Assembly: GCA_963804645.1 (NCBI GenBank)
Contig: CAWDRG010000006.1
Coordinates: 32,001-96,000, forward strand
Reading direction: 5' to 3'
Source of the DNA: an uncultured Bacillota bacterium
Lineage (GTDB): Bacteria > Sysuimicrobiota > Sysuimicrobiia > Sysuimicrobiales > Segetimicrobiaceae
Length of the DNA: 64,000 nucleotides
Shown: positions 32,402 to 63,956 of the stretch, in pieces
Layout of the letters: every line of letters begins with the position of its first letter
How positions within the stretch are numbered: position 1 is the first letter of the stretch
Notes under the pieces: model-generated
Databases searched by the model: none
What the model was told of the DNA's origin: nothing
The model's input: the letters and a program-made list of their open reading frames with translations, nothing else
Program-made: the position numbers and the translations under genes

Positions 32402-33546
32402 TCGACGCGGGCGGCCTGCGCGCGGCGCTGCGCCGCGCCGCGTGGCTGGAGATCGGCTCGCTGTTCTGGCTCCTCGTCATGGGCGCGGCGGCGGTCGCCG
32501 CGGGGCTCGCGTCGCGCAGCCTGTCGGTGACGGCGTTCGGCGTGGTCGGCCTGATCGAGATGCTGTCCGCCTCGGCCGTGTTGTGGCGGCTTTGGATCGA
32601 GACCCTGGTCGGCTCCGTGTCCGGGACCGCGGAACTCGTCGAGCAGGCCGAGCGGGGCGCGGTACGCTTCATCGCCGTGAGCTTCGGCGCGCTCGCGCTC
32701 CTCGTGGCCGCCGGCGCCGCCCGCGCGGTGGCGGAGCGCGCGGTGCCCGCGCCGGGGCTCGGGGACCTCGCGGTCGCGTGCGCGGCCGCGCTCGTCATGC
32801 CGGGCCTGTGGGCCCTCAAATCGCGCGCGGGGCGCGCGATCGGGAGCGCGGCGCTCGACGCGGACGCCGCCGGCAACCTGGCGTGCGCCGTCATGGCATG
32901 GGTGCTCCTCGCCGGCCTGCTGGCGCAGCGGGCGGGGCTGTGGTGGGCCGATCCCGCGGCGGCGCTCGTGATCGGCGCGCTGGTGGTCCGCGAGGCGTGG
33001 GGCACGTGGCAGTCGCGCTCCTGGGCGCCGCGCGATCCGGTGCGGGCGTTTCTGGGCCTGGGGTCGAACGTCGGCGACCGCGCCTACTGGCTCGCGGACG
33101 CGGCGGCGAAGCTTCAGGGGCCGGCGCTGAGCGTCGTCCGGCGCTCGCGCATCTACGAGACGCCGCCCTGGGGCAAGACCGATCAGCCGGCGTTCCTCAA
33201 CCAGGTCCTCGAGGTTGAGACGACGCTCGCGCCGAGCGCGCTGCTCGCGCGCTGCCAGGCGGTCGAGCGGGCCCTCGGCCGCGTGCGCGCGGAGCGGTGG
33301 GGCCCCCGGGTGATCGACGTGGACATCCTGCTCTACGGCGACGCGGTGATCCGGGCGCGCGGCCTCACGGTGCCGCACCCCGATCTGGACCGGCGCGCGT
33401 TCGTGCTGGTCCCGCTCCTGGAGCTGCGGCCGTCCCTGACGCTCCCGGACGGACGGACCGGGGCGGAGCTCCTGGCCGCGCTGCCGGACCGCACGGCGAT
33501 CGTGCCGTGGGGCGCGGACACGCGGGGCGGCGCCGCGCGGGTCTAG
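32398..33546 (+). CDS. folK: Fusion of a cation-efflux-like membrane domain with HPPK
   Basis: About 200 aa hydrophobic N-part (WADPAAALVI) continuous in frame with AFLGLGSNVG, FLNQV, RWGPRVIDVDIL, RRAFVLVPL. Confidence 0.88.
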   Translation: MIDAGGLRAALRRAAWLEIGSLFWLLVMGAAAVAAGLASRSLSVTAFGVVGLIEMLSASAVLWRLWIETLVGSVSGTAELVEQAERGAVRFIAVSFGALALLVAAGAARAVAERAVPAPGLGDLAVACAAALVMPGLWALKSRAGRAIGSAALDADAAGNLACAVMAWVLLAGLLAQRAGLWWADPAAALVIGALVVREAWGTWQSRSWAPRDPVRAFLGLGSNVGDRAYWLADAAAKLQGPALSVVRRSRIYETPPWGKTDQPAFLNQVLEVETTLAPSALLARCQAVERALGRVRAERWGPRVIDVDILLYGDAVIRARGLTVPHPDLDRRAFVLVPLLELRPSLTLPDGRTGAELLAALPDRTAIVPWGADTRGGAARV

Positions 33547-33582
33547 GATCCGCGCCGCGGGACGGAAGAAGGGAGACGTCGG

Positions 33583-34371
33583 ATGGAAGCCTACACGCGT
33601 GACGGCATCGCGGACCGGCTCGGCACGCGCGTGGTCGGCCGCCACGTGCGGTGGCACGATGTGCTGCCGTCGACGAACGAGCTGGCGATGCGCCTGGCCG
33701 AGATTCACGTGCCCGAGGGCACGGTCGTCGTCGCGGAGGAGCAGACCGCGGGGCGGGGCCGCCGCGGCCGCACGTGGGTGTCCCCGCGCGGGGGCATCTG
33801 GCTGTCCGTGATCCTCCGCCCACGCCTGCCGCTGGCCCAGCTCCCGCTCGTCGGCCTCGCGGTCGCGGTCGCCGCGGCGCGGGCGATTCGGGTCACTACG
33901 CGTCTCGCGGCCCGGGTGAAGTGGCCGAACGATGTCCTCGTCGACGGCGCCAAGGTCGCCGGCGTGCTGACCGAGGCCGGGCCCGACGGGGAGTGGATCG
34001 TCGTGGGGGTGGGCATCAACGCGAACGTGGAGCCCTCCGAGCTGCCCCACGATCTTCCGCAGCCGGCGCTGTCGCTGGCCGGCCGGTTGGGGGCGCCGGT
34101 GGACCGCGGCGAGCTCACGCGCCTCCTGCTGCGCGAGATCGACCATGCGTACGGGCAGCTCCAGGAGGCCGCGGGCGCCGCGCACGTCGTGCGGTCGTGG
34201 CGGGAGATGGCGGACACCCTCGGCCGCCCGGTGCGCGTGGAAGGCCAGGGCCGCGCGCTCGACGGGATCGCGGTGGACGTGGACGATCTGGGCGCGCTGC
34301 TGGTGCGAACCGCGGACGGCGCGGTCGAGCGCGTGGTGGCCGGCGAGGTGACGCTGCGGGGGCTCGAATGA
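33583..34371 (+). CDS. birA: Biotin--acetyl-CoA-carboxylase ligase
   Basis: STN, QTAGRGRRGRTW, KWPNDV, KVAGVL, GVGIN. Confidence 0.95.
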   Translation: MEAYTRDGIADRLGTRVVGRHVRWHDVLPSTNELAMRLAEIHVPEGTVVVAEEQTAGRGRRGRTWVSPRGGIWLSVILRPRLPLAQLPLVGLAVAVAAARAIRVTTRLAARVKWPNDVLVDGAKVAGVLTEAGPDGEWIVVGVGINANVEPSELPHDLPQPALSLAGRLGAPVDRGELTRLLLREIDHAYGQLQEAAGAAHVVRSWREMADTLGRPVRVEGQGRALDGIAVDVDDLGALLVRTADGAVERVVAGEVTLRGLE

Positions 34372-35360
34372 GGCCGTTCCCCGCGGGGCGCCTCACGGAC
34401 GTCCCCGGGCTCTCGGTGGGGCACGCGACCGATCTCGAGCACCTGACCGGGTGCACGGTCGTCCTCTGCGAGCGCGGGGCGGTGTGCGGCGCGGCGTCCC
34501 TCGGCGGCGCGCCGGGGACCCGTGAGACGGATCTGCTGCGGCCCGAGAACGTCGTTGATCGCGTCCACGCGATCGTGCTGGCCGGCGGCAGCGCGTTCGG
34601 GCTGGCGGCCGCCGATGGCGTGATGCGCTGGCTTGCGGGTCGCGGGGTGGGATTCGAGACGGCGGCCGCGCGCGTACCGATCGTGCCCGCCGCGGTCCTC
34701 TACGATCTCGGGATCGGCGGCGCTGCGGCGAGACCGGACGCCGCGATGGGCGAGCGGGCGTGCCGGGACGCCTCGGCCGGAGACGTGATGGAAGGGTGCG
34801 TCGGCGCCGGGACGGGTGCCACCGTCGGCAAGGTCTTCGGGCTCGCGGGGGCCATGAAGTCGGGGATCGGCACGTGCAGCGTGTCGGTCGCGGGCGGCGC
34901 GATCGTCGGGGCGCTGGTCGTGACCAACGCGTTCGGAGATGTGGTGGATCCCGCGACCGGCGCGATCGTCGCCGGGGCGCGCGATCCCGCGACGGGGACG
35001 ATGCCCGGCACGTCGGTGCGTTTGCGGAGCGCCGGCCGAGGCGCCGGGGCGGGACTCGGACCGGACCGGGCGCAGCACACCACCCTCGGCGTCGTCGCGA
35101 CCGACGCCGCGCTCACGGTGGCGGAGGCGACGCGGCTCGCGCTCGCCGCGCACACCGGGCTCGCCCGCGCGGTCCGCCCGTCGCACACGTCCGTCGACGG
35201 CGACACGATGTTCGCGCTCAGCACGGGCTCGTCCAGGGCCGACCTGCTCGTCCTGGAGGCGGCCGCCGCGGACGCCGTGGCCGAGGCGATCCTGCGCTCG
35301 GTGCGCGCGGCGCGCACGCTCGGGGGCGTGCCCGGGCTCGCGGGGGAGGGGTCGGGATGA
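34368..35360 (+). CDS. P1/S58 family peptidase (DmpA-like)
   Basis: LTDVPGLSVGHA, GGAPGTRETD, GGSAFGL, TTLGVVATDA, DGDTMFALS. Confidence 0.9.
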   Translation: MRPFPAGRLTDVPGLSVGHATDLEHLTGCTVVLCERGAVCGAASLGGAPGTRETDLLRPENVVDRVHAIVLAGGSAFGLAAADGVMRWLAGRGVGFETAAARVPIVPAAVLYDLGIGGAAARPDAAMGERACRDASAGDVMEGCVGAGTGATVGKVFGLAGAMKSGIGTCSVSVAGGAIVGALVVTNAFGDVVDPATGAIVAGARDPATGTMPGTSVRLRSAGRGAGAGLGPDRAQHTTLGVVATDAALTVAEATRLALAAHTGLARAVRPSHTSVDGDTMFALSTGSSRADLLVLEAAAADAVAEAILRSVRAARTLGGVPGLAGEGSG

Positions 35361-55416: not shown

Positions 55417-55567
55417 GTGGTCACTCCCGACGCCGAGCGGTCCAAGCGGCGCTCAAGTAAAGTATAGCACGTGTAAAGTATAACACCCGGGGGAAGCGCG
55501 AATTCCTGACTTTTCCGCGTGGAGGAGCCAGCGTGCGGGGCCCGCCTTGCTGGGCGGTTTCGGGCTC

Positions 55568-55576
55568 TGCTAGACT
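55568..55576 (+). promoter_or_regulatory. Extended -10 promoter of tRNA-Thr
   Basis: TGcTAGACT ending 18 nt before the tRNA. Confidence 0.6.
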
Positions 55577-55594
55577 ACAGGGGAACCGTCGCGG

Positions 55595-55671
55595 GCCCTC
55601 GTAGCTCAATTCGGCAGAGCACCTCACTTGTAATGAGGTGGTTACCGGTTCAAGTCCGGTCGAGGGCTCCA
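55595..55671 (+). tRNA. tRNA-Thr(TGT)
   Basis: Acceptor GCCCTCG/CGAGGGC, anticodon arm CCTCA-CTTGTAA-TGAGG, GGTTCAA, encoded CCA. Confidence 0.96.
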
Positions 55672-55979
55672 GTCACGTCCTCCAGGCTGCAGCCGAGTGC
55701 GCCGATGCAGGCTGTCGCGGGCTGCGGCACGTTCGTGGAGCCGGAGCCAGTAGGACCCGACGTGCTAGGGACGGACGTTGACCGTGACACGCCTCGGGCG
55801 CGTGGTGCACGTCGTGGCGACCCAAAGGCTCAGCATCGCGCGCGGTCGTCGCGACCGTGGTACGCAGGTAGTGAGAGACGTGACCGTTGCCGTGTCGGCG
55901 CTCACAAACGATGACGAGTTGTGCGCGCTGCGCGGCCGGATCAGCCGGCCGCGCAGCGAGATCGAAGGAGACGGTCAAC

Positions 55980-58900
55980 ATGGCGTTCGTGGCCTGGCAC
56001 AACCAAACCCTGACCGACCACCTCGGCCTTACGAAGCAATACGAGGCCCAGGGTTACGGCTTCATCTCGCTGAGCGTCTATGGATCAACATCGTCGCCGT
56101 ACTATGCCGCCGTGATGGTGCAACCATCGCCGGCCGCGCAGCATCACTATCCCGCCGTACCGGTGAATCAGTGGCAGCAGCTGTTCAATCAGGAAGCCGG
56201 ACAAGGCTATGGGCCGACGATGGTCGCCGCCACCGGCTCGGCGGTGAGCCCACTGTACGCTGCAGTCTTCGAACCGCAAGACCCAATTCCGCTGACGATC
56301 AACGGCATCGGCCTGCCCATCCAAGGCTGGCAGGCGCAGACACTCAACAACAACGGAAAGACCGGCGGCCCGTCCGCCGCGGGCGGCCTCTTCGTCAGCG
56401 TCTACAACGATCAGCAGCACTTTGCGTATCTCGACGGGAGCGGCAACATCCAGGATGCGTGGTACAGCGGCGACGAGTGGCAGCTCCAGCAGATCAATAA
56501 CGGCGGAAAGACCAAAGGGCCGGCCGCTGCCGGCAGTCTCTTCGTCAGCGTCTACAACAATCAGCAGCATTTCACCTACGTCGATACCGGGGGCAACATT
56601 CACGACGCCTGGTACGGTAACGGCGGCTGGCAGATCCAGCAGCTCAACAACGGCGGAACGGTCGATGGCCCGGCCGCCGTCGGCGGTCTCTTCGTCAGCG
56701 TCTACAACGACCAGCAACACTTCACCTATCTCGACGGCCTCGGCAACATCCAGGACGCCTGGTACGGCAACGACGGCTGGCACACCCAGCGGCTCAACAA
56801 CGGCCACGGCGGACAAACCGACGGCCCGGACGCGGTCGGCGGCCTCTTCGTCAGCGTCTACAATGATCAGCAGCACTTCACTTACCTCGATGACGGCGAT
56901 AACCTCCAGGACATTTGGTATGGCAGCGACGGCTGGCACGTCCAGCGGCTTAACAACGGCCACGGCGGCAAGACCGACGGCCCGGCCGCGGCCGGCGGTC
57001 CGTTCGTCAGTGTCTACAACGACCAGCAGCACTTTGCGTATCTCGACGGACTCGGTAACCTCCAGGACATCTGGTACGGCAACGACGGCTGGCACGTCCA
57101 GCAGCTCAACAACGGGCACGGCGGCAAGACCGACGGCCCGGCCGCGGTCGGCGGCCCGTTCGTCTGCGTGTATGACGATCAGCAGCACTTCGCCTACCTC
57201 GACGGCCAGGGCAACCTCCAGGACGCCTGGTACGGTAACGGAGGCTGGCACGTCCAGCAGCTCAACAACGGCCACGGCGGCAAGACCGACGCCCCGGCCG
57301 CGGTCGGCGGCCCATTCGTCTGCGTGTATGGCGATCAGCAGCACTTCGCCTACCTCGACGGCGGCGGTAACGTCCAGGACGTCTGGTACAGCACGTACGT
57401 CCAGACCCTTGCGGTACTGAATGCGCTGGCGAAGAGCCAGGGGCTGATCCTGCGGTGGGCCGCGTCGTATGGTGATTCGATGGGTCGGGCCTTTGTCGCG
57501 ATCTGGATCCCCAATTCCGGCCAGACACTTTGGAATAACGACGGGGTCTCCGATAGCGCCAGCGGCTATCAGGCCCGCTTTGACGCGGAGGCCTCCGGGT
57601 GGTGCCGACCCGCGTTCGTCACCCTGAATACGAATTTGGAATATCTCTCAATCTTCGTGGATAACCAGATCGGTCCGTTGTGGGCGAACCACGAACTGAC
57701 ATCGGCCCAGTACCAGTCCGCGTCCGACACGTTGGTGCAACAAGGCTTTTTCCCCATCTGCGTACAGGCCGCCGGACCGGATCCGGATTTCGCGACGTTT
57801 TCCGCGATCTTCGCGAAGAGCCAGCAGGTCGTCGGGAAGCAGTTCAGCGCGACGGGGCCGGTGGCCAATGCCCAGATCGACGCGGTCATCGCACCGTTGA
57901 TGCAGACCTATGGCGTACGTCATGCCGCACTGGCCATCGTGCACGACCGGCAGCTCGTGTATGCGCGGGCGTACACGCTGGCCGAGCCCGACTGGCCGGT
58001 CGCGCAGCCGACCACCTGCTTCCGCCTGGCGAGCGTGTCCAAGGTGCCGACCGCCGTGGCCATTTATCAACTGATCCAGGCGGGGACGCTCAAGCTGGGG
58101 GACTCGCTCCAGGGCATTCTGCAGCTCACGACACCCTCCGGCGGACCGCCCGTGGATTTACGGTTCAACCAAATTACCATCCAACAGCTGCTCGAACACA
58201 AGAGCGGACTGATTCCCGACGGGCCCACTTCCGGCGCGTTCGATGATGGTGTGGCTGTGGCGAAAGCGTTTCCGACGGCGACGCTGCCCGTGAGCGCCCC
58301 GATGACGGACTCGTACATTGCCAGCCTTCGCCTCCAGAGCAACCCGGGCGCCACGCAAGTGTACAACAACTGCGGCTACTATCTGTTGGCGCGTGTCGTC
58401 GCAAAGCTGCGCGGTCAAAGCCGTCCGATCGACGCGTACCAGCAGTATTTGTTCAATCCGCTGTCGATCACGCGCATCCGCCGCGCGGTGAGCTTGGTCG
58501 CCGACCAGCCGCCGGACGAAGCGCGGTACCAGGACTACGATCTCATCGTGGATGCGAGTCAAATGTCCGAGCCACAACCGCTGGTCCCCGACATGTACGG
58601 CGACCTCCAACTCGAGATCATGGAAGGGTCGGGCGGGCTGACCGGGGCCGTTCCCGACGTGGCGCGGCTGATCGCGATCCTCATTTCGCAGCAGGACAAT
58701 CCCGCCAGCACGCGGGCGACGCTGGTGAATATGCTGTCGGCTGGAGCGGCGCTGAGCACCGCTGGCTTCGCGCGCGCGGGGTATGGGTTTGACTTCGTCA
58801 GCAGCTTGGGCGGCGGCCAGTTCGACGCCCAGAAAGGCGGCTTGTGGGACAGCTCGTCCAGCATCCTATCACTCAACGGGGAGTGGGGATTTACGATGCT

Positions 58901-59036
58901 GTGGGGTAGTGGACGGCCTGGTCAACTCCCGAACCAGCCGTGGGCGTCAAATTTCCCCGCGGTCATGAACATCGCTACGAGTACCAACTGGGGCTCCGAC
59001 GATCTCTTCCCGCAATTCGGCATGCCGTCGCTGTGA
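55980..59036 (+). CDS. Serine hydrolase (beta-lactamase family) with tandem-repeat domains and an inserted 7-repeat propeller
   Basis: AAGGAG RBS; FRLASVSK (SxxK), LLEHKSG, YNN; seven 50-52 aa repeats. Confidence 0.85.
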   Translation: MAFVAWHNQTLTDHLGLTKQYEAQGYGFISLSVYGSTSSPYYAAVMVQPSPAAQHHYPAVPVNQWQQLFNQEAGQGYGPTMVAATGSAVSPLYAAVFEPQDPIPLTINGIGLPIQGWQAQTLNNNGKTGGPSAAGGLFVSVYNDQQHFAYLDGSGNIQDAWYSGDEWQLQQINNGGKTKGPAAAGSLFVSVYNNQQHFTYVDTGGNIHDAWYGNGGWQIQQLNNGGTVDGPAAVGGLFVSVYNDQQHFTYLDGLGNIQDAWYGNDGWHTQRLNNGHGGQTDGPDAVGGLFVSVYNDQQHFTYLDDGDNLQDIWYGSDGWHVQRLNNGHGGKTDGPAAAGGPFVSVYNDQQHFAYLDGLGNLQDIWYGNDGWHVQQLNNGHGGKTDGPAAVGGPFVCVYDDQQHFAYLDGQGNLQDAWYGNGGWHVQQLNNGHGGKTDAPAAVGGPFVCVYGDQQHFAYLDGGGNVQDVWYSTYVQTLAVLNALAKSQGLILRWAASYGDSMGRAFVAIWIPNSGQTLWNNDGVSDSASGYQARFDAEASGWCRPAFVTLNTNLEYLSIFVDNQIGPLWANHELTSAQYQSASDTLVQQGFFPICVQAAGPDPDFATFSAIFAKSQQVVGKQFSATGPVANAQIDAVIAPLMQTYGVRHAALAIVHDRQLVYARAYTLAEPDWPVAQPTTCFRLASVSKVPTAVAIYQLIQAGTLKLGDSLQGILQLTTPSGGPPVDLRFNQITIQQLLEHKSGLIPDGPTSGAFDDGVAVAKAFPTATLPVSAPMTDSYIASLRLQSNPGATQVYNNCGYYLLARVVAKLRGQSRPIDAYQQYLFNPLSITRIRRAVSLVADQPPDEARYQDYDLIVDASQMSEPQPLVPDMYGDLQLEIMEGSGGLTGAVPDVARLIAILISQQDNPASTRATLVNMLSAGAALSTAGFARAGYGFDFVSSLGGGQFDAQKGGLWDSSSSILSLNGEWGFTMLWGSGRPGQLPNQPWASNFPAVMNIATSTNWGSDDLFPQFGMPSL
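56328..57392 (+). repeat. Seven intragenic tandem repeats of 150-156 bp
   Basis: Unit W.xQ.LNNG..KTDGP.A.GG.FV.VY.DQQHF.YLDG.GN.QD.WY. Confidence 0.95.
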
Positions 59037-59109
59037 CGGCGGCGCGGCCCGTGGGCGCGGCGCGCCGTTCCGCAAGGCGCGCTGATAGACTCCCGATGGC
59101 TCGCCGTGG

Positions 59110-59187
59110 ACCCTCGCAGCCTAGTTCGACCGGACATCTCACTTGTAATGAGGGTGGTTACCGGTTCAAGTCCGGTCGAGGGCTCCA
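59110..59187 (+). repeat. Degenerate full-length tRNA-Thr copy (att-like repeat 1)
   Basis: 3' part 59138-59187 identical to the tRNA except one inserted G; 5' part matches 18/28. Confidence 0.88.
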
Positions 59188-59480
59188 GATTTTGCTAGGG
59201 GTTGCGGTCGTCTGCGTGATCATCGGGGAGATACTGCGCGCGCGAGTCGCCGACGGTCGTGATTTTGAGAAGGACCGCATGCGCGAGCGGCAGATACACT
59301 CGCCGGCGGTCGAGTTCGACAGGCGCGGCGGCCTCAAGGGAGACGAAGACGAGGGCCGCTGAACGGTGAGCGGCGGAGCGGAAACCACTCGCCAGAACGA
59401 CCGCATCGCGCAGGTGGGCGTGCACACGCCCAGGAACTGGGCAGAACCAGCGCTCACGGCTCGACATGGAGGAGACGGCC

Positions 59481-60743
59481 ATGAAGCGACGCGTGTTCGC
59501 GCTCGTCCTCGGCATCCTCGTCGCAGGGTTGCTGGCGGGACCCAGGCCCGCGACGGGAGACACCGCCGACGCTGGCTTGGTGCTCGCGGCGTTGAACGTC
59601 TTGGAGCAGCGGTACGCGAAGCCCGTCCAGCCGGTGGCGTTGTTAAACGCCGCAATTGAATCTCTTGGACAAGCGGGCAATGTGGACCTCACGGCCATTC
59701 CCGATGGTACGCTCGAGGCACAGGCACAGGGGGCGTTCCGCCAAGACTTCGCCAAAGCTGTGCAGACGGGCGCGGCGAAGGAGGAGGACCTCGCCTATCA
59801 AGCCACGCGGGCGATGCTGGCGTCGCTTCATGACAGCCACACCCTCTACATTGATCCGGCGCACTGGGCGGCCCGGCAGGTTCAGGTAGGCGGGAAGCCC
59901 GGTTTTGTCGGCATAGGATTCATCAGCGTGTCCATCAAGGACGACGCAGGCCAGTCCGTGCTGTATGCTGCGGTAGTATTTCCTGGCGCGCCCGCGGCCG
60001 CAGCAGGTCTCTAGGTGCTCGACCAGTTCACCGGAGGCGCGCCTGCCGCAGGCCCCGCCGGATCGACCGTTACATTTACCGTGCAGCGCAAGGGGCAGCC
60101 GGTCACTCTCACGGCGACGAGGCAAGCCATCCAAACGCCTATCGTTGTTGCGGTACCGATGGTCCGTCCCGGGATTGCGTACATTAACTTCCTGGGGTTC
60201 GCCCAGGGTGCCAATGACGCGGTCCGGACCGCGTTGAAGACAGCCCAGGCCCAGGGTCCGCTTCGCGGCGTGATTCTTGACCTGCGACAAAATGGCGGAG
60301 GTCAAATTGACGAGTTGGAGGGCATCGCCGGAGCGCTGCTGCCCCCGCGGACGCTCCTTGCGCATACGGTCAGCCGACAGCAGGGATCGTCTGAGTTTCT
60401 GGTGACCGGGGCACCGCTTCTGCCTCAAACTCCGCTTGTCGTCCTGACGAGTGGGCGCAGCGAGTCAGCCGCTGAAATACTGAGCCTTGCGCTCCACGAC
60501 GCGCATCGAGCGACCCTGATTGGTGAGAAGACGGCCGGTGCGTATCAGAACAACAACGTGGTCCCGCTGCCCGCCGGGGGGATGTCCGTCACCGTGCGTG
60601 AGATCTCCGGCCCTCAATATGAGCAAGTGGAGGGGATCGGGATCACGCCTGACCAGGTAGTCCCGCTGACCGTCGACGACGTGTTGAACGGGACGGATAG
60701 TCAGCTCGATGCGGCGCTCAAAGCACTCGGCGCCGGGAACTAG
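59481..60743 (+). pseudogene. S41 (C-terminal processing) peptidase with in-frame TAG at 60012-60014
   Basis: Signal peptide, MLASLHDSHT, ILDLRQNGGG, SESAAEI, GEKTAG, EGIGITPD; both ORFs in one frame. Confidence 0.85.
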
Positions 60744-60936
60744 GAGATGCGCCCTAAACGGTATCCCTTGCCGGTGGGTAAGCCACGGGAACTTGCGATT
60801 CCTTTGCAATTGCGCGGAGCCGGGATCTGAGGGATTGGGCCGTGGTAGGAAAGGAAGTCGAAGGCGGACAGCCTGTTGAAATAGTGCTCAAAGAAGCTGA
60901 GACGTGCGAAGCATCGAACTGCAAAGGGAGTAGGTT

Positions 60937-62044
<1,108 letters not shown>

Positions 62045-62106
62045 TCAGCTTTGTTGGGTGGCAGATGGAACCCTGGCCAGTGTGACCGACTCAAGACTGC
62101 CAGAAT

Positions 62107-62155
62107 CTCACTGGTAATGAGGTGGTTACCGGTTCAAGTCCGGTCGAGGGCGCCA
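62107..62155 (+). repeat. tRNA-Thr 3' fragment (att-like repeat 3; anticodon reads GGT)
   Basis: 47/49 identical to 55623-55671. Confidence 0.93.
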
Positions 62156-62416
62156 GATCGTACTAGGGGTGCGGTTCTCCCTTCCGCCACGCGGTGCTCG
62201 AGATGGAGGCGATTGGATTCCAACTCGCTCGTGGGGCGTCAGCCCGTCGCTCCCCCGGCGGGCGCGGCGCTCGGCCGTGGCGGGCCATACGCGACGCGTC
62301 TGTCTGCTTGTTCTGGCGACCCTCGTTTCCTGGCGCACGAGGAGAGATCATCGCTGAGCCCGGTGCGACGCAGTCATCTCCCCGCTGTCTCCGTCCCTCG
62401 GGGTGTCCGAGCGATA

Positions 62417-63370
62417 CTAGCGTTCAAGCGAGATCTCCAGCCGGAACGTCGTCGACGTGTCTCCCACGGGGACATTCGGGATGGCGAGCACCAACGTTTT
62501 CGTACCCACGGGTACCGGATCGAACGCGATCTGCCCGGTCTGTGACGACTTGCCGGGGACGGCGTCCGGCAGTTGAGTCTGCATGAACCGCACGTTGTAG
62601 GTGTGGCTCAGGTCATCGGTGAGCGTGGCAGCGGACGCCGCCAGCACGAGGTTGACGGGCGCATCGTTGCTGTTGTCGGCGGTGATTCGCACGGTGGTGT
62701 AGTCCTTCTCGAACGTCACTTCGGATATACGAAGCGTCAGTCCGTTTTCGGACGCTTCGGCGTTTGCCGCGAGGCGCGTTCCCGACTCCTGAGTGGGCAA
62801 CTTCGCCATCGCCGCGACCATGTCGTCGGGGAGGGCGAGCCTCCACACGGCTCCGTCTCTGACGGCCACGAACGTCATGAGATTTTCGGCGACGGCGTGT
62901 CCACCGATCGGCATTGGGGCACAATACGTTGCGGTCGCCAAGCACGCAACGGTGACCAGCGTCGTCAGGATCGAGAATCCGGCGTTTTCTGTGGTCGTTG
63001 TCGTGACGTCTGCGGTGACGACGGCCTGATCCTGTGTCTCATTGTAGGCGGGCTCGCCGATCGTGTAGGTGATCGTTCTGGAGAATCCGACCCGTGTGCC
63101 TTGCGATCCAACCTGTTTCCAGTACGCAATGAATTGATCTGCAGCGACCCGCACCCGCGTGCGGTTGAGCAGATTCTCGTCGTAGAAACTCCGCAGCACG
63201 CCGTCCGCAGGCGGCTGTCCCCTCTCCGCGGGGACGGCGATCGTGTTGAGAAAGAGCGCGACGAGGTCTTGCGGGGCGGCGGTGCCGGACGACGACTGGG
63301 CCGAGCCCGGCGTCGCCAATGACAGACTCAGCACCGTGACAGTTGCCGCGAGCGCTACGAACTTCACCAT
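62417..63370 (-). CDS. Secreted or membrane-anchored protein with C-terminal Ig-like (DUF4352-like) domain
   Basis: GGAGGG RBS, signal peptide MVKFVALAA, C-terminal LTDDL..TY...PG.S..GQIAF. Confidence 0.65.
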   Translation of the reverse strand: MVKFVALAATVTVLSLSLATPGSAQSSSGTAAPQDLVALFLNTIAVPAERGQPPADGVLRSFYDENLLNRTRVRVAADQFIAYWKQVGSQGTRVGFSRTITYTIGEPAYNETQDQAVVTADVTTTTTENAGFSILTTLVTVACLATATYCAPMPIGGHAVAENLMTFVAVRDGAVWRLALPDDMVAAMAKLPTQESGTRLAANAEASENGLTLRISEVTFEKDYTTVRITADNSNDAPVNLVLAASAATLTDDLSHTYNVRFMQTQLPDAVPGKSSQTGQIAFDPVPVGTKTLVLAIPNVPVGDTSTTFRLEISLER

Positions 63371-63907
63371 ATGCCCCCCTCCATTCTGGGTGAACGCGCT
63401 AGTAGACCTGGATCCAGAAGCACAGGATTCGCTCCACGCCGTCCTCAGAGGTGCGATCCCCGACGATGCCCCTTGCGGGGCTGCCACCCGTACTCGCCCA
63501 CAAGACATCTCGCATGGCCACCACACCCCTGGCTCGCGGGCTGACCCGAACCTCGAGTGGGCCCTTGCCCCCGTACGCAGTCTTCCGATCTCCGCATCGC
63601 ATCCGCTCATATCATGCACGACGCGTAGGTTGTCCGAATCGGTCGAAGGGCCCAGGGAACGGGGGTGTGGCGCGGATAAGGGGCTGAAACCAGTCTGGCG
63701 CGCTCGGCTCGCTTTACACGTTCTGAGAAGACTGTCTCCTCAGAAGGCCGAGGCGTGTTGCGCGTTGTGAACTTCAGCGGCGGCACGTCCTCACTCCTGG
63801 TGTCCATCGTGCCGCAGGACTCGTTACGGCAGCCCCAAAGATACGTTCGCAGGTCATCAGCGGTTACTCGCGAACCCGCAAATGGCATAGGCTAGTGAGC
63901 GTGCCGC

Positions 63908-63956
63908 CCCACTTGTAATGAGGGGGTTACCGGTTCAAGTCCGGCCGAGGGCTCCA
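63908..63956 (+). repeat. tRNA-Thr 3' fragment (att-like repeat 4)
   Basis: 46/49 identical to 55623-55671. Confidence 0.93.

What the first reader, a model, noticed from the sequence alone, without database searches (positions are those of the whole stretch)
55595..63956. Integron-like array of single-gene cargo segments punctuated by tRNA-Thr 3' halves
Seen: the last 49 nt of tRNA-Thr (anticodon arm to CCA) recur as direct repeats at 59138, 60937, 62107 and 63908, with spacings of 3515, 1799, 1170 and 1801 bp. Each interval holds one gene: repeat serine hydrolase, S41 peptidase, aldo/keto reductase, secreted Ig-like protein. No integrase, phage or conjugation gene is visible, and the array may continue past the window. 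Established: tRNA 3' duplications mark integrase att sites, normally around much larger elements. Inference: either minimal cassettes mobilised in trans by one recombinase, or remnants of serial island insertions reduced to single genes.
Basis: partly seen in the sequence, partly recalled or inferred. Interest (0 to 1): 0.82.

Follow-up and report, generated by a model that had tools for sequence, protein, structure and literature searches.

The report
Integrase-less gene modules stacked at tRNA-Thr
Behind a threonine tRNA gene of an uncultured peat bacterium lies a row of small foreign gene modules, each ending in a spare copy of the tRNA's back half; this is the known footprint of mobile DNA inserting again and again at one spot, here unusually dense, without any recombinase gene, and still varying between close strains.

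Summary
The last 49 nt of tRNA-Thr(UGU) recur as direct repeats at the stated places. Two further decayed copies lie beyond the window, giving 6-7 repeats over 18 kb.

The repeats start in the anticodon stem, as att cores of tyrosine integrases do. The DNA between them has lower G+C than the flanks, and other species of the genus lack it. No integrase is detectable on the whole contig.

Relatives show where such DNA comes from. One metagenome contig has an integrase gene abutting this tRNA. A sister species and another genus keep integrase stumps at the same position.

Three metagenome contigs 95-98% identical to this genome carry an extra 1182-bp one-gene module. It is inserted exactly at a core, once behind an internal core and once behind the intact tRNA. 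Four modules with unrelated cargo share a ~140-nt arm before the core.

Best reading: a tandem accretion array of integrase-less, CIME-like modules at a tRNA hot spot, still turning over by recombination between cores. It is not an integron. Mobilisation of the modules in trans stays possible (about 0.3).

This kind is known, and this scan has noted it on other DNA, including another tRNA of this genome.

The parts
55595..55671 (+). Intact tRNA-Thr(UGU) gene, the anchor of the array. Its last 49 nt (55623-55671) are the att core.
   Evidence: ARAGORN. Rfam tRNA, 70.1 bits. The upstream region (MoaA-like radical SAM gene) is syntenic in 5 same-genus genomes.
55672..59078 (+). Module 1. It holds one gene, 55887-59036, of 1049 aa: tandem BTRD1 (polyglycine-hydrolase-like) repeats plus a beta-lactamase-fold serine hydrolase domain.
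   Evidence: Pfam PF00144 E 8.9e-35 and PF17660 E 1.2e-26. 150-156-nt tandem repeats. G+C 0.63-0.65, against 0.69-0.71 in the flank. No DNA match to this module outside G000 in the 94 genomes of the order.
59079..59137 (+). Decayed copy of the tRNA promoter region and tRNA 5' half. It is the arm in front of core 2.
   Evidence: 72% alike to 55564-55638 (family D4). Together with core 2 it scores as a full-length tRNA, 30.9 bits.
59138..59187 (+). Core copy 2 (50 nt, one inserted base). It is followed by a ~28-nt trailer like the one behind the tRNA of sister species G013.
59466..60743 (+). Module 2 cargo: an S41 peptidase frame broken by an in-frame TAG at 60012-60014.
   Evidence: PF03572 E 9.6e-32 on the distal part. 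Read-through translation.
60791..60936 (+). Conserved arm ('P arm') in front of core 3. Homologous arms precede two cores of G013 and the right-hand core of the metagenome 'S' module.
   Evidence: blastn 78-85%. Alignment A3. Arm identity 64-87% against core identity 94-100%. Found in 2 of 94 genomes of the class.
60937..60985 (+). Core copy 3, identical to the tRNA (49/49).
61008..62012 (+). Module 3 cargo: an aldo/keto reductase of 334 aa. It starts 22 nt after core 3 and ends 94 nt before core 4.
   Evidence: PF00248 E 3.9e-75. Sequence read.
62107..62155 (+). Core copy 4 (2 mismatches). With the 31 nt before it, it scores as a full-length decayed tRNA.
   Evidence: Rfam 29.2 bits at L007:8076-8152.
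62417..63619 (-). Module 4 cargo: a protein with no family match. The ORF has 400 aa; the likely start is at 63370 (317 aa), which gives an N-terminal hydrophobic segment that I judged by eye to look like a signal peptide.
   Evidence: No Pfam hit at E<=1. Atlas scores are under 0.9. The same gene is 94.7% and 98.6% alike in metagenome contigs L022 and L025.
63908..63956 (+). Core copy 5 (2 mismatches). In L022 and L025 an extra 1182-bp module is inserted exactly after its CCA.

Best explanation
This is an integration hot spot at the 3' half of tRNA-Thr(UGU). It holds a tandem accretion array of at least six integrase-less, mostly one-gene modules, comparable to CIMEs.

Proposed mechanism. A tyrosine integrase recombines an element's attP with the tRNA gene, crossing over in or near the anticodon loop. 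The element supplies a new 3' half, so the tRNA stays intact. The former 3' half ends up behind the element, preceded by the element's own arm. Repetition pushes older units outwards. The integrase genes are no longer present; they were either deleted or were never carried by the smallest units. The 49-nt cores now serve as sites at which whole modules are gained or lost, through an integrase supplied in trans or through homologous recombination.

Shown:
- the repeats and their register;
- foreign base composition of the DNA between them;
- absence of this DNA from other species of the genus;
- an integrase gene or integrase stumps at this tRNA in relatives;
- module-precise differences between close strains.

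Inferred:
- the crossover point;
- the order of events;
- how the integrases were lost;
- which enzyme drives today's turnover.
For: Register of the repeats.
- All copies begin in the anticodon stem and run to CCA.
- I recall this as the anticodon-loop class of tRNA att sites (Williams 2002; paper not seen here).

Foreign DNA.
- G+C is 0.60-0.65 in the array and 0.69-0.71 in the flank.
- GC3 is about 0.72-0.82 in array genes and above 0.9 in core genes.

Locus comparison.
- Upstream synteny is kept in 5 of 5 same-genus genomes compared.
- The gap between the tRNA and the conserved downstream block is about 4 kb in G008 and G010, 24.6 kb here and about 66 kb in G013.

Integrases at this site in relatives.
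- Contig L026 has a PF00589 gene (E 4.3e-12) ending about 70 nt behind the tRNA.
- G013 keeps a ~58-aa C-terminal stump directly behind its tRNA (tblastn E 3.3e-6). Its matches elsewhere coincide with PF00589 ORFs.
- L028, from another genus, has a 54-aa stump 71 nt from its tRNA-Thr.

Decay.
- There is an in-frame stop in the S41 gene and a frame change in the SBP gene.
- The outer cores are the most decayed: 84% for copy 6, and E 0.038 for copy 7.

Turnover.
- L022 and L025 (94.7% and 98.6% alike) carry an extra 1182-bp module exactly at core 5.
- In L020 (98.2% alike) the same module start follows the intact tRNA, 72/72 nt identical.

Cores compared with arms.
- Cores are 94-100% alike while the adjoining arms are 64-87% alike.
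- This fits cores being renewed from the live tRNA at each event.

The same footprint at other tRNAs of this genome.
- 17 of 102 tRNA-half queries have extra copies.
Against: - No integrase remnant is detectable in any of the six modules of this genome. The PF00589 six-frame search gives nothing at E<=1 on the contig. tblastn with 10 integrase ORFs of this genome gives a best E of 0.14, and the L026 integrase gives a best E of 2.1.
- The ORF lying where an integrase would be, L007:5198-5755(-), is not integrase-like.
- The cores of modules 1-4 are almost perfect and module 3 has only 22 + 94 non-coding bases. Complete and tidy loss of five or six integrase genes by random deletion is therefore not an easy fit.
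- No intact integrase of the genome sits at a tRNA-Thr-like site. The core occurs nowhere else in the genome.
- The order of the modules rests on one assembly; the public contigs break at the cores.
- The frame change in the SBP gene could be an assembly error.
Confidence: 0.6

Rival explanations
1. This is a true cassette system. The modules are minimal mobile units (arm + 49-nt core + short trailer + one gene) that never carried an integrase. A tyrosine integrase encoded elsewhere, on a visiting element or an unassembled replicon, excises, inserts and shuffles them at any core of the array. The array would then be a tRNA-anchored analogue of an integron array.
For: - Six modules show no integrase trace although their cores are nearly perfect.
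- The modules are compact: module 3 is 1121 nt for a 1005-nt gene, and the S module is 1182 bp from core to core.
- The S module is seen behind two different cores, and this genome lacks it.
- Four modules with unrelated cargo end in a homologous ~140-nt arm.
- A shared ~21-nt trailer follows cores 2, 4, 5 and 6, the G013 tRNA and G013 core C, although the DNA after it differs.
- The S cargo with its 167-nt leader is 95.9% alike to a non-tRNA locus of G013, a species only about 85% alike in core DNA. The homology starts at the first base after the core.
- Integrases for this tRNA do circulate in related organisms (L026).
Against: - No candidate integrase was found in this genome or in the five same-genus genomes on the tRNA-Thr contigs (42 PF00589 matches listed, none on those contigs).
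- No circle junction (arm-core-own trailer) occurs among the 9 metagenome loci holding the core, and there is no hit in viral contigs.
- Every strain difference seen can also be produced by deletion between direct repeats from a longer ancestral array.
- The arm needs no selection to be 64-87% alike if the elements share descent.
- Integrase stumps in G013 and L028, and a weak 28-aa integrase-like piece inside the S module (E 0.028), show that reduction of integrase-bearing elements does happen here.
- Two cargo genes are broken.
Confidence: 0.3
2. The array is made and remodelled by homologous recombination alone. Circles or fragments carrying a copy of the tRNA region from related strains would enter by Campbell-type crossover in the 49-130 nt of shared tRNA sequence and leave by the reverse event. 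No site-specific recombinase would be involved.
For: - Copies 2 and 6, and the second copy in G011, include decayed promoter and 5'-half sequence. The shared segment can therefore exceed 100 nt.
- Cargo genes are paralogues of ordinary genes of this clade: SBP 79% to C9 of this genome, AKR 72-74% to relatives, S41 69%.
- Direct repeats of 49 nt allow RecA-dependent deletion (established knowledge; not tested here).
Against: - The sharp 5' limit of identity in the anticodon stem in copies 3, 4 and 5 and in the G013 copies is the signature of site-specific crossover, not of homology-length-dependent exchange.
- Integrase genes or stumps sit at this very site in relatives.
- Homologous recombination does not explain how the first copy of each foreign module acquired a tRNA half.
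Confidence: 0.07
3. The array is an assembly artefact. Alternative single insertions of co-existing strains would have been threaded in series through the shared repeat.
For: - The locus is polymorphic in the same kind of samples.
- Public unitigs break at every core, so none confirms the order of modules 2-5.
- Contigs of many relatives end at this tRNA.
Against: - Independent assemblies join module 4, a core and the S module (L022, L025), and L022 runs through two cores.
- G013 also has several cores on one 331-kb contig.
- The cores differ from one another by private changes (the indel in copy 2, the changes in copies 4 and 5). They are therefore distinct places, not one collapsed repeat.
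Confidence: 0.03

Closest known systems
Additive flexible genomic islands at tRNA/tmRNA genes (Alteromonas; Lopez-Perez et al., PMC4898812; passages read)
   Same: Both are a hot spot next to a tRNA gene where gene 'cassettes' of varying number and kind accumulate. [quoted passage not shown] Close strains differ by whole cassettes.
   Different: Here the modules are much smaller (1.1-3.6 kb, one gene each) and nearly every one is still bounded by a 49-nt core. The host is an uncultured peat bacterium. In the passages I read, that paper names no recombinase for the cassettes, and 'integrase' occurs 0 times in its main text.
CIMEs (cis-mobilizable elements) and tandem accretion of ICESt1-type elements (definition read in PMC5704250; the primary papers Pavlovic 2004 and Bellanger 2011 were seen only as references)
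   Same: Both are units bounded by attL and attR that lack integration and transfer genes, stacked in tandem at the 3' end of a target gene.
   Different: CIMEs are defined as decay products of ICEs or IMEs and move when an ICE integrates beside them. Here no ICE, relaxase or conjugation gene was seen, the units hold a single gene, and their descent from larger elements is shown only for relatives.
Tycheposon islands of Prochlorococcus (bioRxiv 10.1101/2020.12.28.424599; passages read)
   Same: Both integrate at tRNA genes. Neighbouring elements are separated only by a partial tRNA copy, new arrivals push older ones into the island, and remnants and further partial tRNAs are scattered in the islands.
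   Different: Tycheposons are defined by their own recombinase and replication modules. None is present here. There is no sign of relatedness to them, and their hallmark genes were not found by the Pfam scan of the array ORFs.
Integrons
   Same: Both are an ordered row of mostly one-gene units, each ending in a recombination site and without a recombinase of its own.
   Different: There is no intI, attI or common promoter next to the array. The repeated site is a direct copy of a tRNA 3' half plus an arm, not an attC element. The modules carry genes on either strand.

Membership tests
tRNA-gene integration site of tyrosine integrases, tandem accretion | Intact tRNA gene at one end and direct repeats of its 3' part at the far end of each inserted unit | tested here: met
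   one intact gene plus 5 clear copies and 1 weak copy, all in the same orientation.
tRNA-gene integration site of tyrosine integrases, tandem accretion | Identity block with a sharp limit inside the tRNA (anticodon stem or loop) running to the 3' end | tested here: met
   Alignments A1 and A2: identity starts at tRNA position 28-30 in all copies. That this is a class of att sites is recalled, not read here.
tRNA-gene integration site of tyrosine integrases, tandem accretion | A PF00589 integrase gene inside the inserted unit, next to an att site | tested here: not met
   None on contig C6 at E<=1; tblastn best E 0.14. The feature is met only in relatives: L026 (E 4.3e-12), and stumps in G013 and L028.
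tRNA-gene integration site of tyrosine integrases, tandem accretion | Inserted DNA is foreign and absent from the same site in relatives | tested here: met
   G+C and GC3. The site is about 4 kb in G008 and G010 against 24.6 kb here.
CIME (cis-mobilizable element) | Bounded by att sites on both sides and lacking integration and transfer genes | tested here: met
   Cores on both sides of modules 1-5. No PF00589 or PF00239 on the contig. No transfer gene among the 30 ORFs scanned; conjugation families were not searched by name.
CIME (cis-mobilizable element) | Derived from an ICE or IME by deletion, and mobilised when an ICE integrates beside it | tested here: inconclusive
   Integrase stumps were seen in G013 and L028, not here. 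No ICE was seen. Mobilisation is not testable with these tools.
Integron | intI integrase gene with attI and a promoter at the head of the array | tested here: not met
   Upstream of the tRNA lies a MoaA-type radical SAM gene. No PF00589 on the contig.
Integron | Cassettes end in attC sites | tested here: not met
   The repeated site is the tRNA 3' half with an arm. Rfam finds only tRNA there (5 matches, all tRNA).
Tycheposon | Own tyrosine or large serine recombinase plus a replication module | tested here: not met

The most novel reading that the evidence does not exclude
The tRNA-Thr locus would be a working gene-capture platform. One-gene units that carry only a complete attachment site (a decayed tRNA 5' half or ~140-nt arm, the 49-nt core and a ~21-nt trailer) would be cut out, inserted at any core and exchanged between species by a tyrosine integrase supplied in trans. 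This would be an integron-like system built on a tRNA gene. It may be widespread, since this genome shows the same footprint at other tRNAs and the scan has noted similar arrays in other phyla.
Probability: 0.3. Interest if true: 0.75.

Novelty: new member of a known kind. Interest (0 to 1): 0.48.

Why it matters
The locus shows in unusually clean form how a soil or peat bacterium collects single foreign genes at one tRNA gene. It has six or seven near-perfect att cores in 18 kb and no recombinase, and close strains differ by exactly one module.

This gives a concrete test of an open question about 'additive' genomic islands: are integrase-less modules dead remnants, or do they still move by borrowing an integrase? 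The 1182-bp S module, seen behind two different cores and missing from this genome, is the natural object for that test.

There is also a practical point. The spare tRNA halves and decayed full-length copies can be mis-annotated as tRNA genes. Two of them reach Rfam's tRNA threshold.

Tried and rejected
- Sequencing runs. 17 runs were listed and 12 hold part of the stretch, all peat, bioreactor or soil metagenomes kept as contigs.
- Laying four of these runs on L007:5000-11000. Only short unitigs were obtained, and they stop at the cores. No joint falls at a repeat boundary. The joints listed lie inside the AKR gene, plus one 2767-nt skip with a 25-nt side; I take them for other organisms' genes. 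Circles, empty sites and module order could therefore not be read.
- Viral contigs. 0 matches to the core.
- Rfam at E<=0.1 on L007, L022 and L010. Only tRNA matches; no known RNA family in the arm.
- The arm as a DNA query over the 94 genomes of the class. Found only in G000 and G013.
- The IS110-family genes at the far end of the array as a possible recombinase for the array. Rejected: they belong to a multi-copy IS (23 matches in the genome), and the same pair with the same spacing occurs on C19. G013 has its copies on other contigs.
- 'Gene X', the ~480-aa gene that abuts cores 6 and 7, as a possible new recombinase. Rejected: the N-terminus is hydrophobic, only a BNR-like trace was found at E 0.19, and it looks like an exported protein.
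- ORF L007:5198-5755(-) as an integrase stump. No support.
- Search for relatives of the L026 integrase in genome contigs. 512 of 601 candidates were confirmed and 80 kept; only 1 of those 80 loci (L028) holds this tRNA. No intact element with both att sites was recovered.
- Protein atlas for the module-4 protein. All scores are under 0.9, so it gives leads only.
- Taxon. I did not determine the phylum. The named relatives are only 'bacterium isolate' MAGs.


Full report
**Observation**

- The window is G000:C6:32001-96000.
- ARAGORN finds tRNA-Thr(tgt) at 55595-55671.
- Its last 49 nt, from the 5' strand of the anticodon stem to CCA, recur as direct repeats:
  - 59138-59187 (one inserted base);
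  - 60937-60985 (49/49);
  - 62107-62155 (2 mismatches);
  - 63908-63956 (2 mismatches).
- A 47-mer with up to 3 mismatches hits 4 times in the window, against 0 hits in 100 shuffles.
- In the whole 5.3-Mb genome the core occurs only on this contig and only on the + strand: 6 matches, and 0 for the reversed control.
- The array continues beyond the window:
  - a full-length but decayed tRNA copy at C6:99525-99599 (84% over 75 nt);
  - a weak last remnant at C6:105719-105743 (nhmmer E 0.038; also seen by eye).
- The array spans about 18.1 kb, C6:87672-105743.

**Contents of the array** (Pfam; frames)

- Module 1 (3.5 kb): a 1049-aa protein with BTRD1 repeats and a beta-lactamase-fold hydrolase domain.
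- Module 2 (1.8 kb): an S41 peptidase frame with an in-frame TAG.
- Module 3 (1.17 kb): an aldo/keto reductase. It starts 22 nt after the core and ends 94 nt before the next core.
- Module 4 (1.8 kb): a minus-strand protein without any family match.
- Module 5 (3.6 kb, outside the window): a family-5 solute-binding protein gene whose frame changes. The module also holds a ~480-aa protein with a hydrophobic N-terminus ('gene X').
- Module 6 (6.2 kb): a STAND/LuxR regulator, a zinc-ribbon protein, a DinB-family protein and a second, frame-shifted copy of gene X that is 85% alike to the first.
- After module 6 come two IS110-family genes. They belong to a multi-copy IS of this genome: 23 matches, and the same pair occurs on C19.
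- G+C is 0.60-0.65 in modules 1-4, against 0.69-0.71 in the upstream flank.
- GC3 of array genes is about 0.72-0.82, against more than 0.9 in core genes.
- Several cargo genes are paralogues of ordinary genes of this clade at 69-79% DNA identity.

**No recombinase in the array**

- PF00589 gives 13 matches at E<=1 in the genome, none on C6.
- PF00239 gives 4 matches, none on C6.
- tblastn with ten integrase ORFs of this genome finds nothing better than E 0.14 in C6:87000-107000. The L026 integrase finds nothing better than E 2.1 there.
- The minus-strand ORF that lies where an integrase would be expected in module 2 is not integrase-like.
- Among the PF00589 matches next to tRNA genes in this genome, the two that abut tRNA-Pro genes are short fragments; the three near tRNA-Arg(tcg) include a 332-aa open frame. 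None lies near tRNA-Thr.

**Relatives**

- Over the 94 species genomes of the order, 50 have the tRNA-Thr 3' pattern. Only G000 and the sister species G013 have more than two copies on one contig. The tally includes the unpublished G047.
- In the family, 17 of 23 genomes match the core. G000 has 5 copies, G013 has 3, and G011 and G014 have 2 each.
- Upstream synteny is kept in all five same-genus genomes compared.
- The conserved downstream block begins about 4 kb after the tRNA in G008 and G010, 24.6 kb after it here and about 66 kb after it in G013.
- G013 has, in this order:
  - the tRNA;
  - a 21.6-kb metabolic island;
  - a core;
  - an 887-bp unit with one 203-aa gene;
  - a core;
  - two further decayed cores (E 2e-8 and E 0.035);
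  - the orthologue of gene X with a last decayed remnant, then core DNA.
- G010 has a 34-nt remnant about 700 nt behind its tRNA.
- None of the 42 PF00589 matches listed for five same-genus genomes lies on a tRNA-Thr contig.

**Where the integrases are**

- Metagenome contig L026 carries an intact tRNA-Thr. A minus-strand PF00589 gene (partial, 223 aa, E 4.3e-12) has its 3' end about 70 nt behind the tRNA.
- In G013, the DNA directly behind the tRNA still encodes about 58 residues of an integrase C-terminus, including the region of the catalytic tyrosine. The evidence:
  - tblastn E 3.3e-6;
  - its matches in other genomes coincide with PF00589 ORFs;
  - on its own it has no Pfam hit.
- A genome of another genus (L028) has a 54-aa stump, 83% alike to the L026 protein, 71 nt from its tRNA-Thr. 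It is the only one of 80 loci kept that holds this tRNA.
- Integrase-bearing elements therefore use this site, and integrase genes get truncated there.

**The sides of the cores**

- Before the cores:
  - Copies 2 and 6 are preceded by decayed copies of the tRNA promoter region and 5' half.
  - Copies 2 and 4 reach the Rfam tRNA threshold as full-length matches, at 30.9 and 29.2 bits.
  - Copy 3 is preceded by a ~140-nt arm. Homologous arms precede two G013 cores and one metagenome core, each time behind unrelated cargo.
  - Across these four, the arms are 64-87% alike while the 47 core columns are 94-100% alike. Given the arm's divergence, so few core mismatches have binomial probabilities from 1e-1 down to 9e-9 for the six pairs.
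  - This fits cores being copied afresh from the live tRNA at each event. It would also fit selection or gene conversion.
- Behind the cores:
  - Copies 2, 4, 5 and 6, the G013 tRNA and G013 core C share a ~21-nt trailer, after which the sequences differ.
  - In G013 this trailer is the end of the integrase stump.
  - Whether it marks integrase ends in the other modules or is part of the att site itself stays open.

**Variation between close strains**

A scan of the metagenome collection for the core gave 9 loci (10 rows).

- L022 is 94.7% alike to module 4 plus core 5, and L025 is 98.6% alike. Exactly after the CCA, both carry an extra module: a 167-nt leader, a 206-aa gene with an N-terminal hydrophobic stretch, about 150 nt, and an arm of the shared family.
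- In L022 this module is followed by a second core and then by the trailer that follows core 5 in this genome (78 nt, 94.9%). The two cores lie 1182 bp apart.
- L020 is 98.2% alike over 3173 nt to the upstream flank and the intact tRNA. After the tRNA it continues with 72 nt that are identical to the start of that same module.
- The same module therefore stands behind an internal core in two assemblies and behind the live tRNA in a third, and it is missing from this genome.
It can come from insertion at two cores, or from deletions between direct repeats in a longer ancestral array. The data cannot tell which.
- The cargo of this module with its leader (837 nt) is 95.9% alike to a non-tRNA locus of G013. 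The homology begins at the first base after the core. Core DNA of the two species is only about 85% alike.

**Not tested**

- Circular junctions could not be tested.
- The only runs that hold the stretch are kept as contigs. These are short, low-depth unitigs that end at each core.
- The order of modules 1-6 therefore rests on the G000 assembly alone.
- Two observations argue against a threading artefact: L022 runs through two cores, and the cores carry private differences.

**The rest of the genome**

- 17 of 102 tRNA-half queries (51 tRNAs) have extra copies outside tRNA genes.
- These include rows at tRNA-Lys (3 extra copies) and tRNA-Met (4), and very short units at tRNA-Pro(ggg) (824 bp) and tRNA-Ile.
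My scan sees an extra copy there too.
- The scan has also noted integrase-less module arrays at tRNA genes in at least 19 other genomes. I did not check those notes.

**Comparison with what is known**

- tRNA-linked 'additive' flexible islands. In these, cassettes accumulate, some are still marked by a partial tRNA repeat, and close strains differ by cassettes. They are described for Alteromonas (PMC4898812, passages).
- CIMEs. These are att-bounded units without integration or transfer genes, stacked by accretion (PMC5704250, passage).
- Tycheposon islands. These show neighbouring elements separated by partial tRNAs, and remnants with fragmented integrases (bioRxiv 10.1101/2020.12.28.424599, passages).
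- Partial tRNA genes as attR sites are discussed in PMC9897764 (passages).
- The present locus is a member of this kind. It stands out by density, by single-gene size and by the complete lack of integrase traces.
- It is not an integron: there is no intI, attI or attC.
- My literature searches turned up no paper that describes arrays of single-gene integrase-less modules at tRNA genes as a trans-mobilised system. These were four searches of an open-access library only, so this is not proof that none exists.

**Verdict**

- Best explanation: a tandem accretion array of integrase-less modules at a tRNA-Thr integration hot spot, still turning over at its cores (0.6).
- The bolder reading, a working trans-mobilised cassette platform, is not excluded (about 0.3).

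Noticed in passing
whole genome G000, e.g. C9:482398-498090 (tRNA-Lys), C15:176605-244729 (tRNA-Met), C19:293996-294859 (tRNA-Pro ggg), C18:27605-33572 (tRNA-Ile): Spare copies of tRNA 3' halves are common in this genome: 17 of 102 tRNA-half queries have extra copies outside tRNA genes. They include rows of 3-4 copies and units of only 0.4-0.8 kb.
   Followed up: partly
C6:97980-99477 and C6:104193-105698 (beyond the window; window 65980-67477 and 72193-73698): Two copies, 85% alike, of a ~480-aa gene with a hydrophobic N-terminus and no family match. Each is read towards a decayed tRNA-Thr copy that abuts its 5' end. The G013 orthologue shows the same arrangement.
   Followed up: partly
G013:C4:74164-74999 (L125:10164-10999): The cargo of the metagenome 'S' module, with its leader, is 95.9% alike to this non-tRNA locus of the sister species. 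The homology starts at the first base after the att core. The 15 nt before it faintly resemble the tRNA T-arm.
   Followed up: partly
window 56325-57428: Seven tandem 150-156-nt repeats, 63-83% alike, encode BTRD1 (polyglycine-hydrolase-like) repeats in front of a beta-lactamase-fold domain in a 1049-aa protein. This is an unusual bacterial architecture.
   Followed up: no
C6:106454-108948 and C19:113188-115681: A pair of IS110-family genes in opposite orientation occurs twice in the genome with the same spacing (2066 and 2065 nt) and identical scores. This suggests a composite repeated unit.
   Followed up: no
relatives: G007:C139:190, G014:C62:424, G017:C77:128, G022:C249:786, G025:C90:14, G028:C59:292, G030:C31:96, G042:C336:468, G047:C600:251: In many MAGs of the order the tRNA-Thr lies within a few hundred bases of a contig end. 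Assemblies seem to break at this hot spot. G047 is flagged unpublished.
   Followed up: no
G006:C111:24894-34726: This region of G006 holds six matches to the S-module cargo protein (E from 3.7e-41 to 7.6e-4). Three of them, at 45-49% identity, stand in tandem at 32795-34726; the others are weaker.
   Followed up: no
G011:C103:14881-14953 (L015:6881-6953): G011 has a second, nearly full-length tRNA-Thr copy (92% alike) with a promoter-like upstream region similar to that of the real gene. It lies on another contig. The duplicated segment can therefore include the whole gene and its promoter.
   Followed up: no
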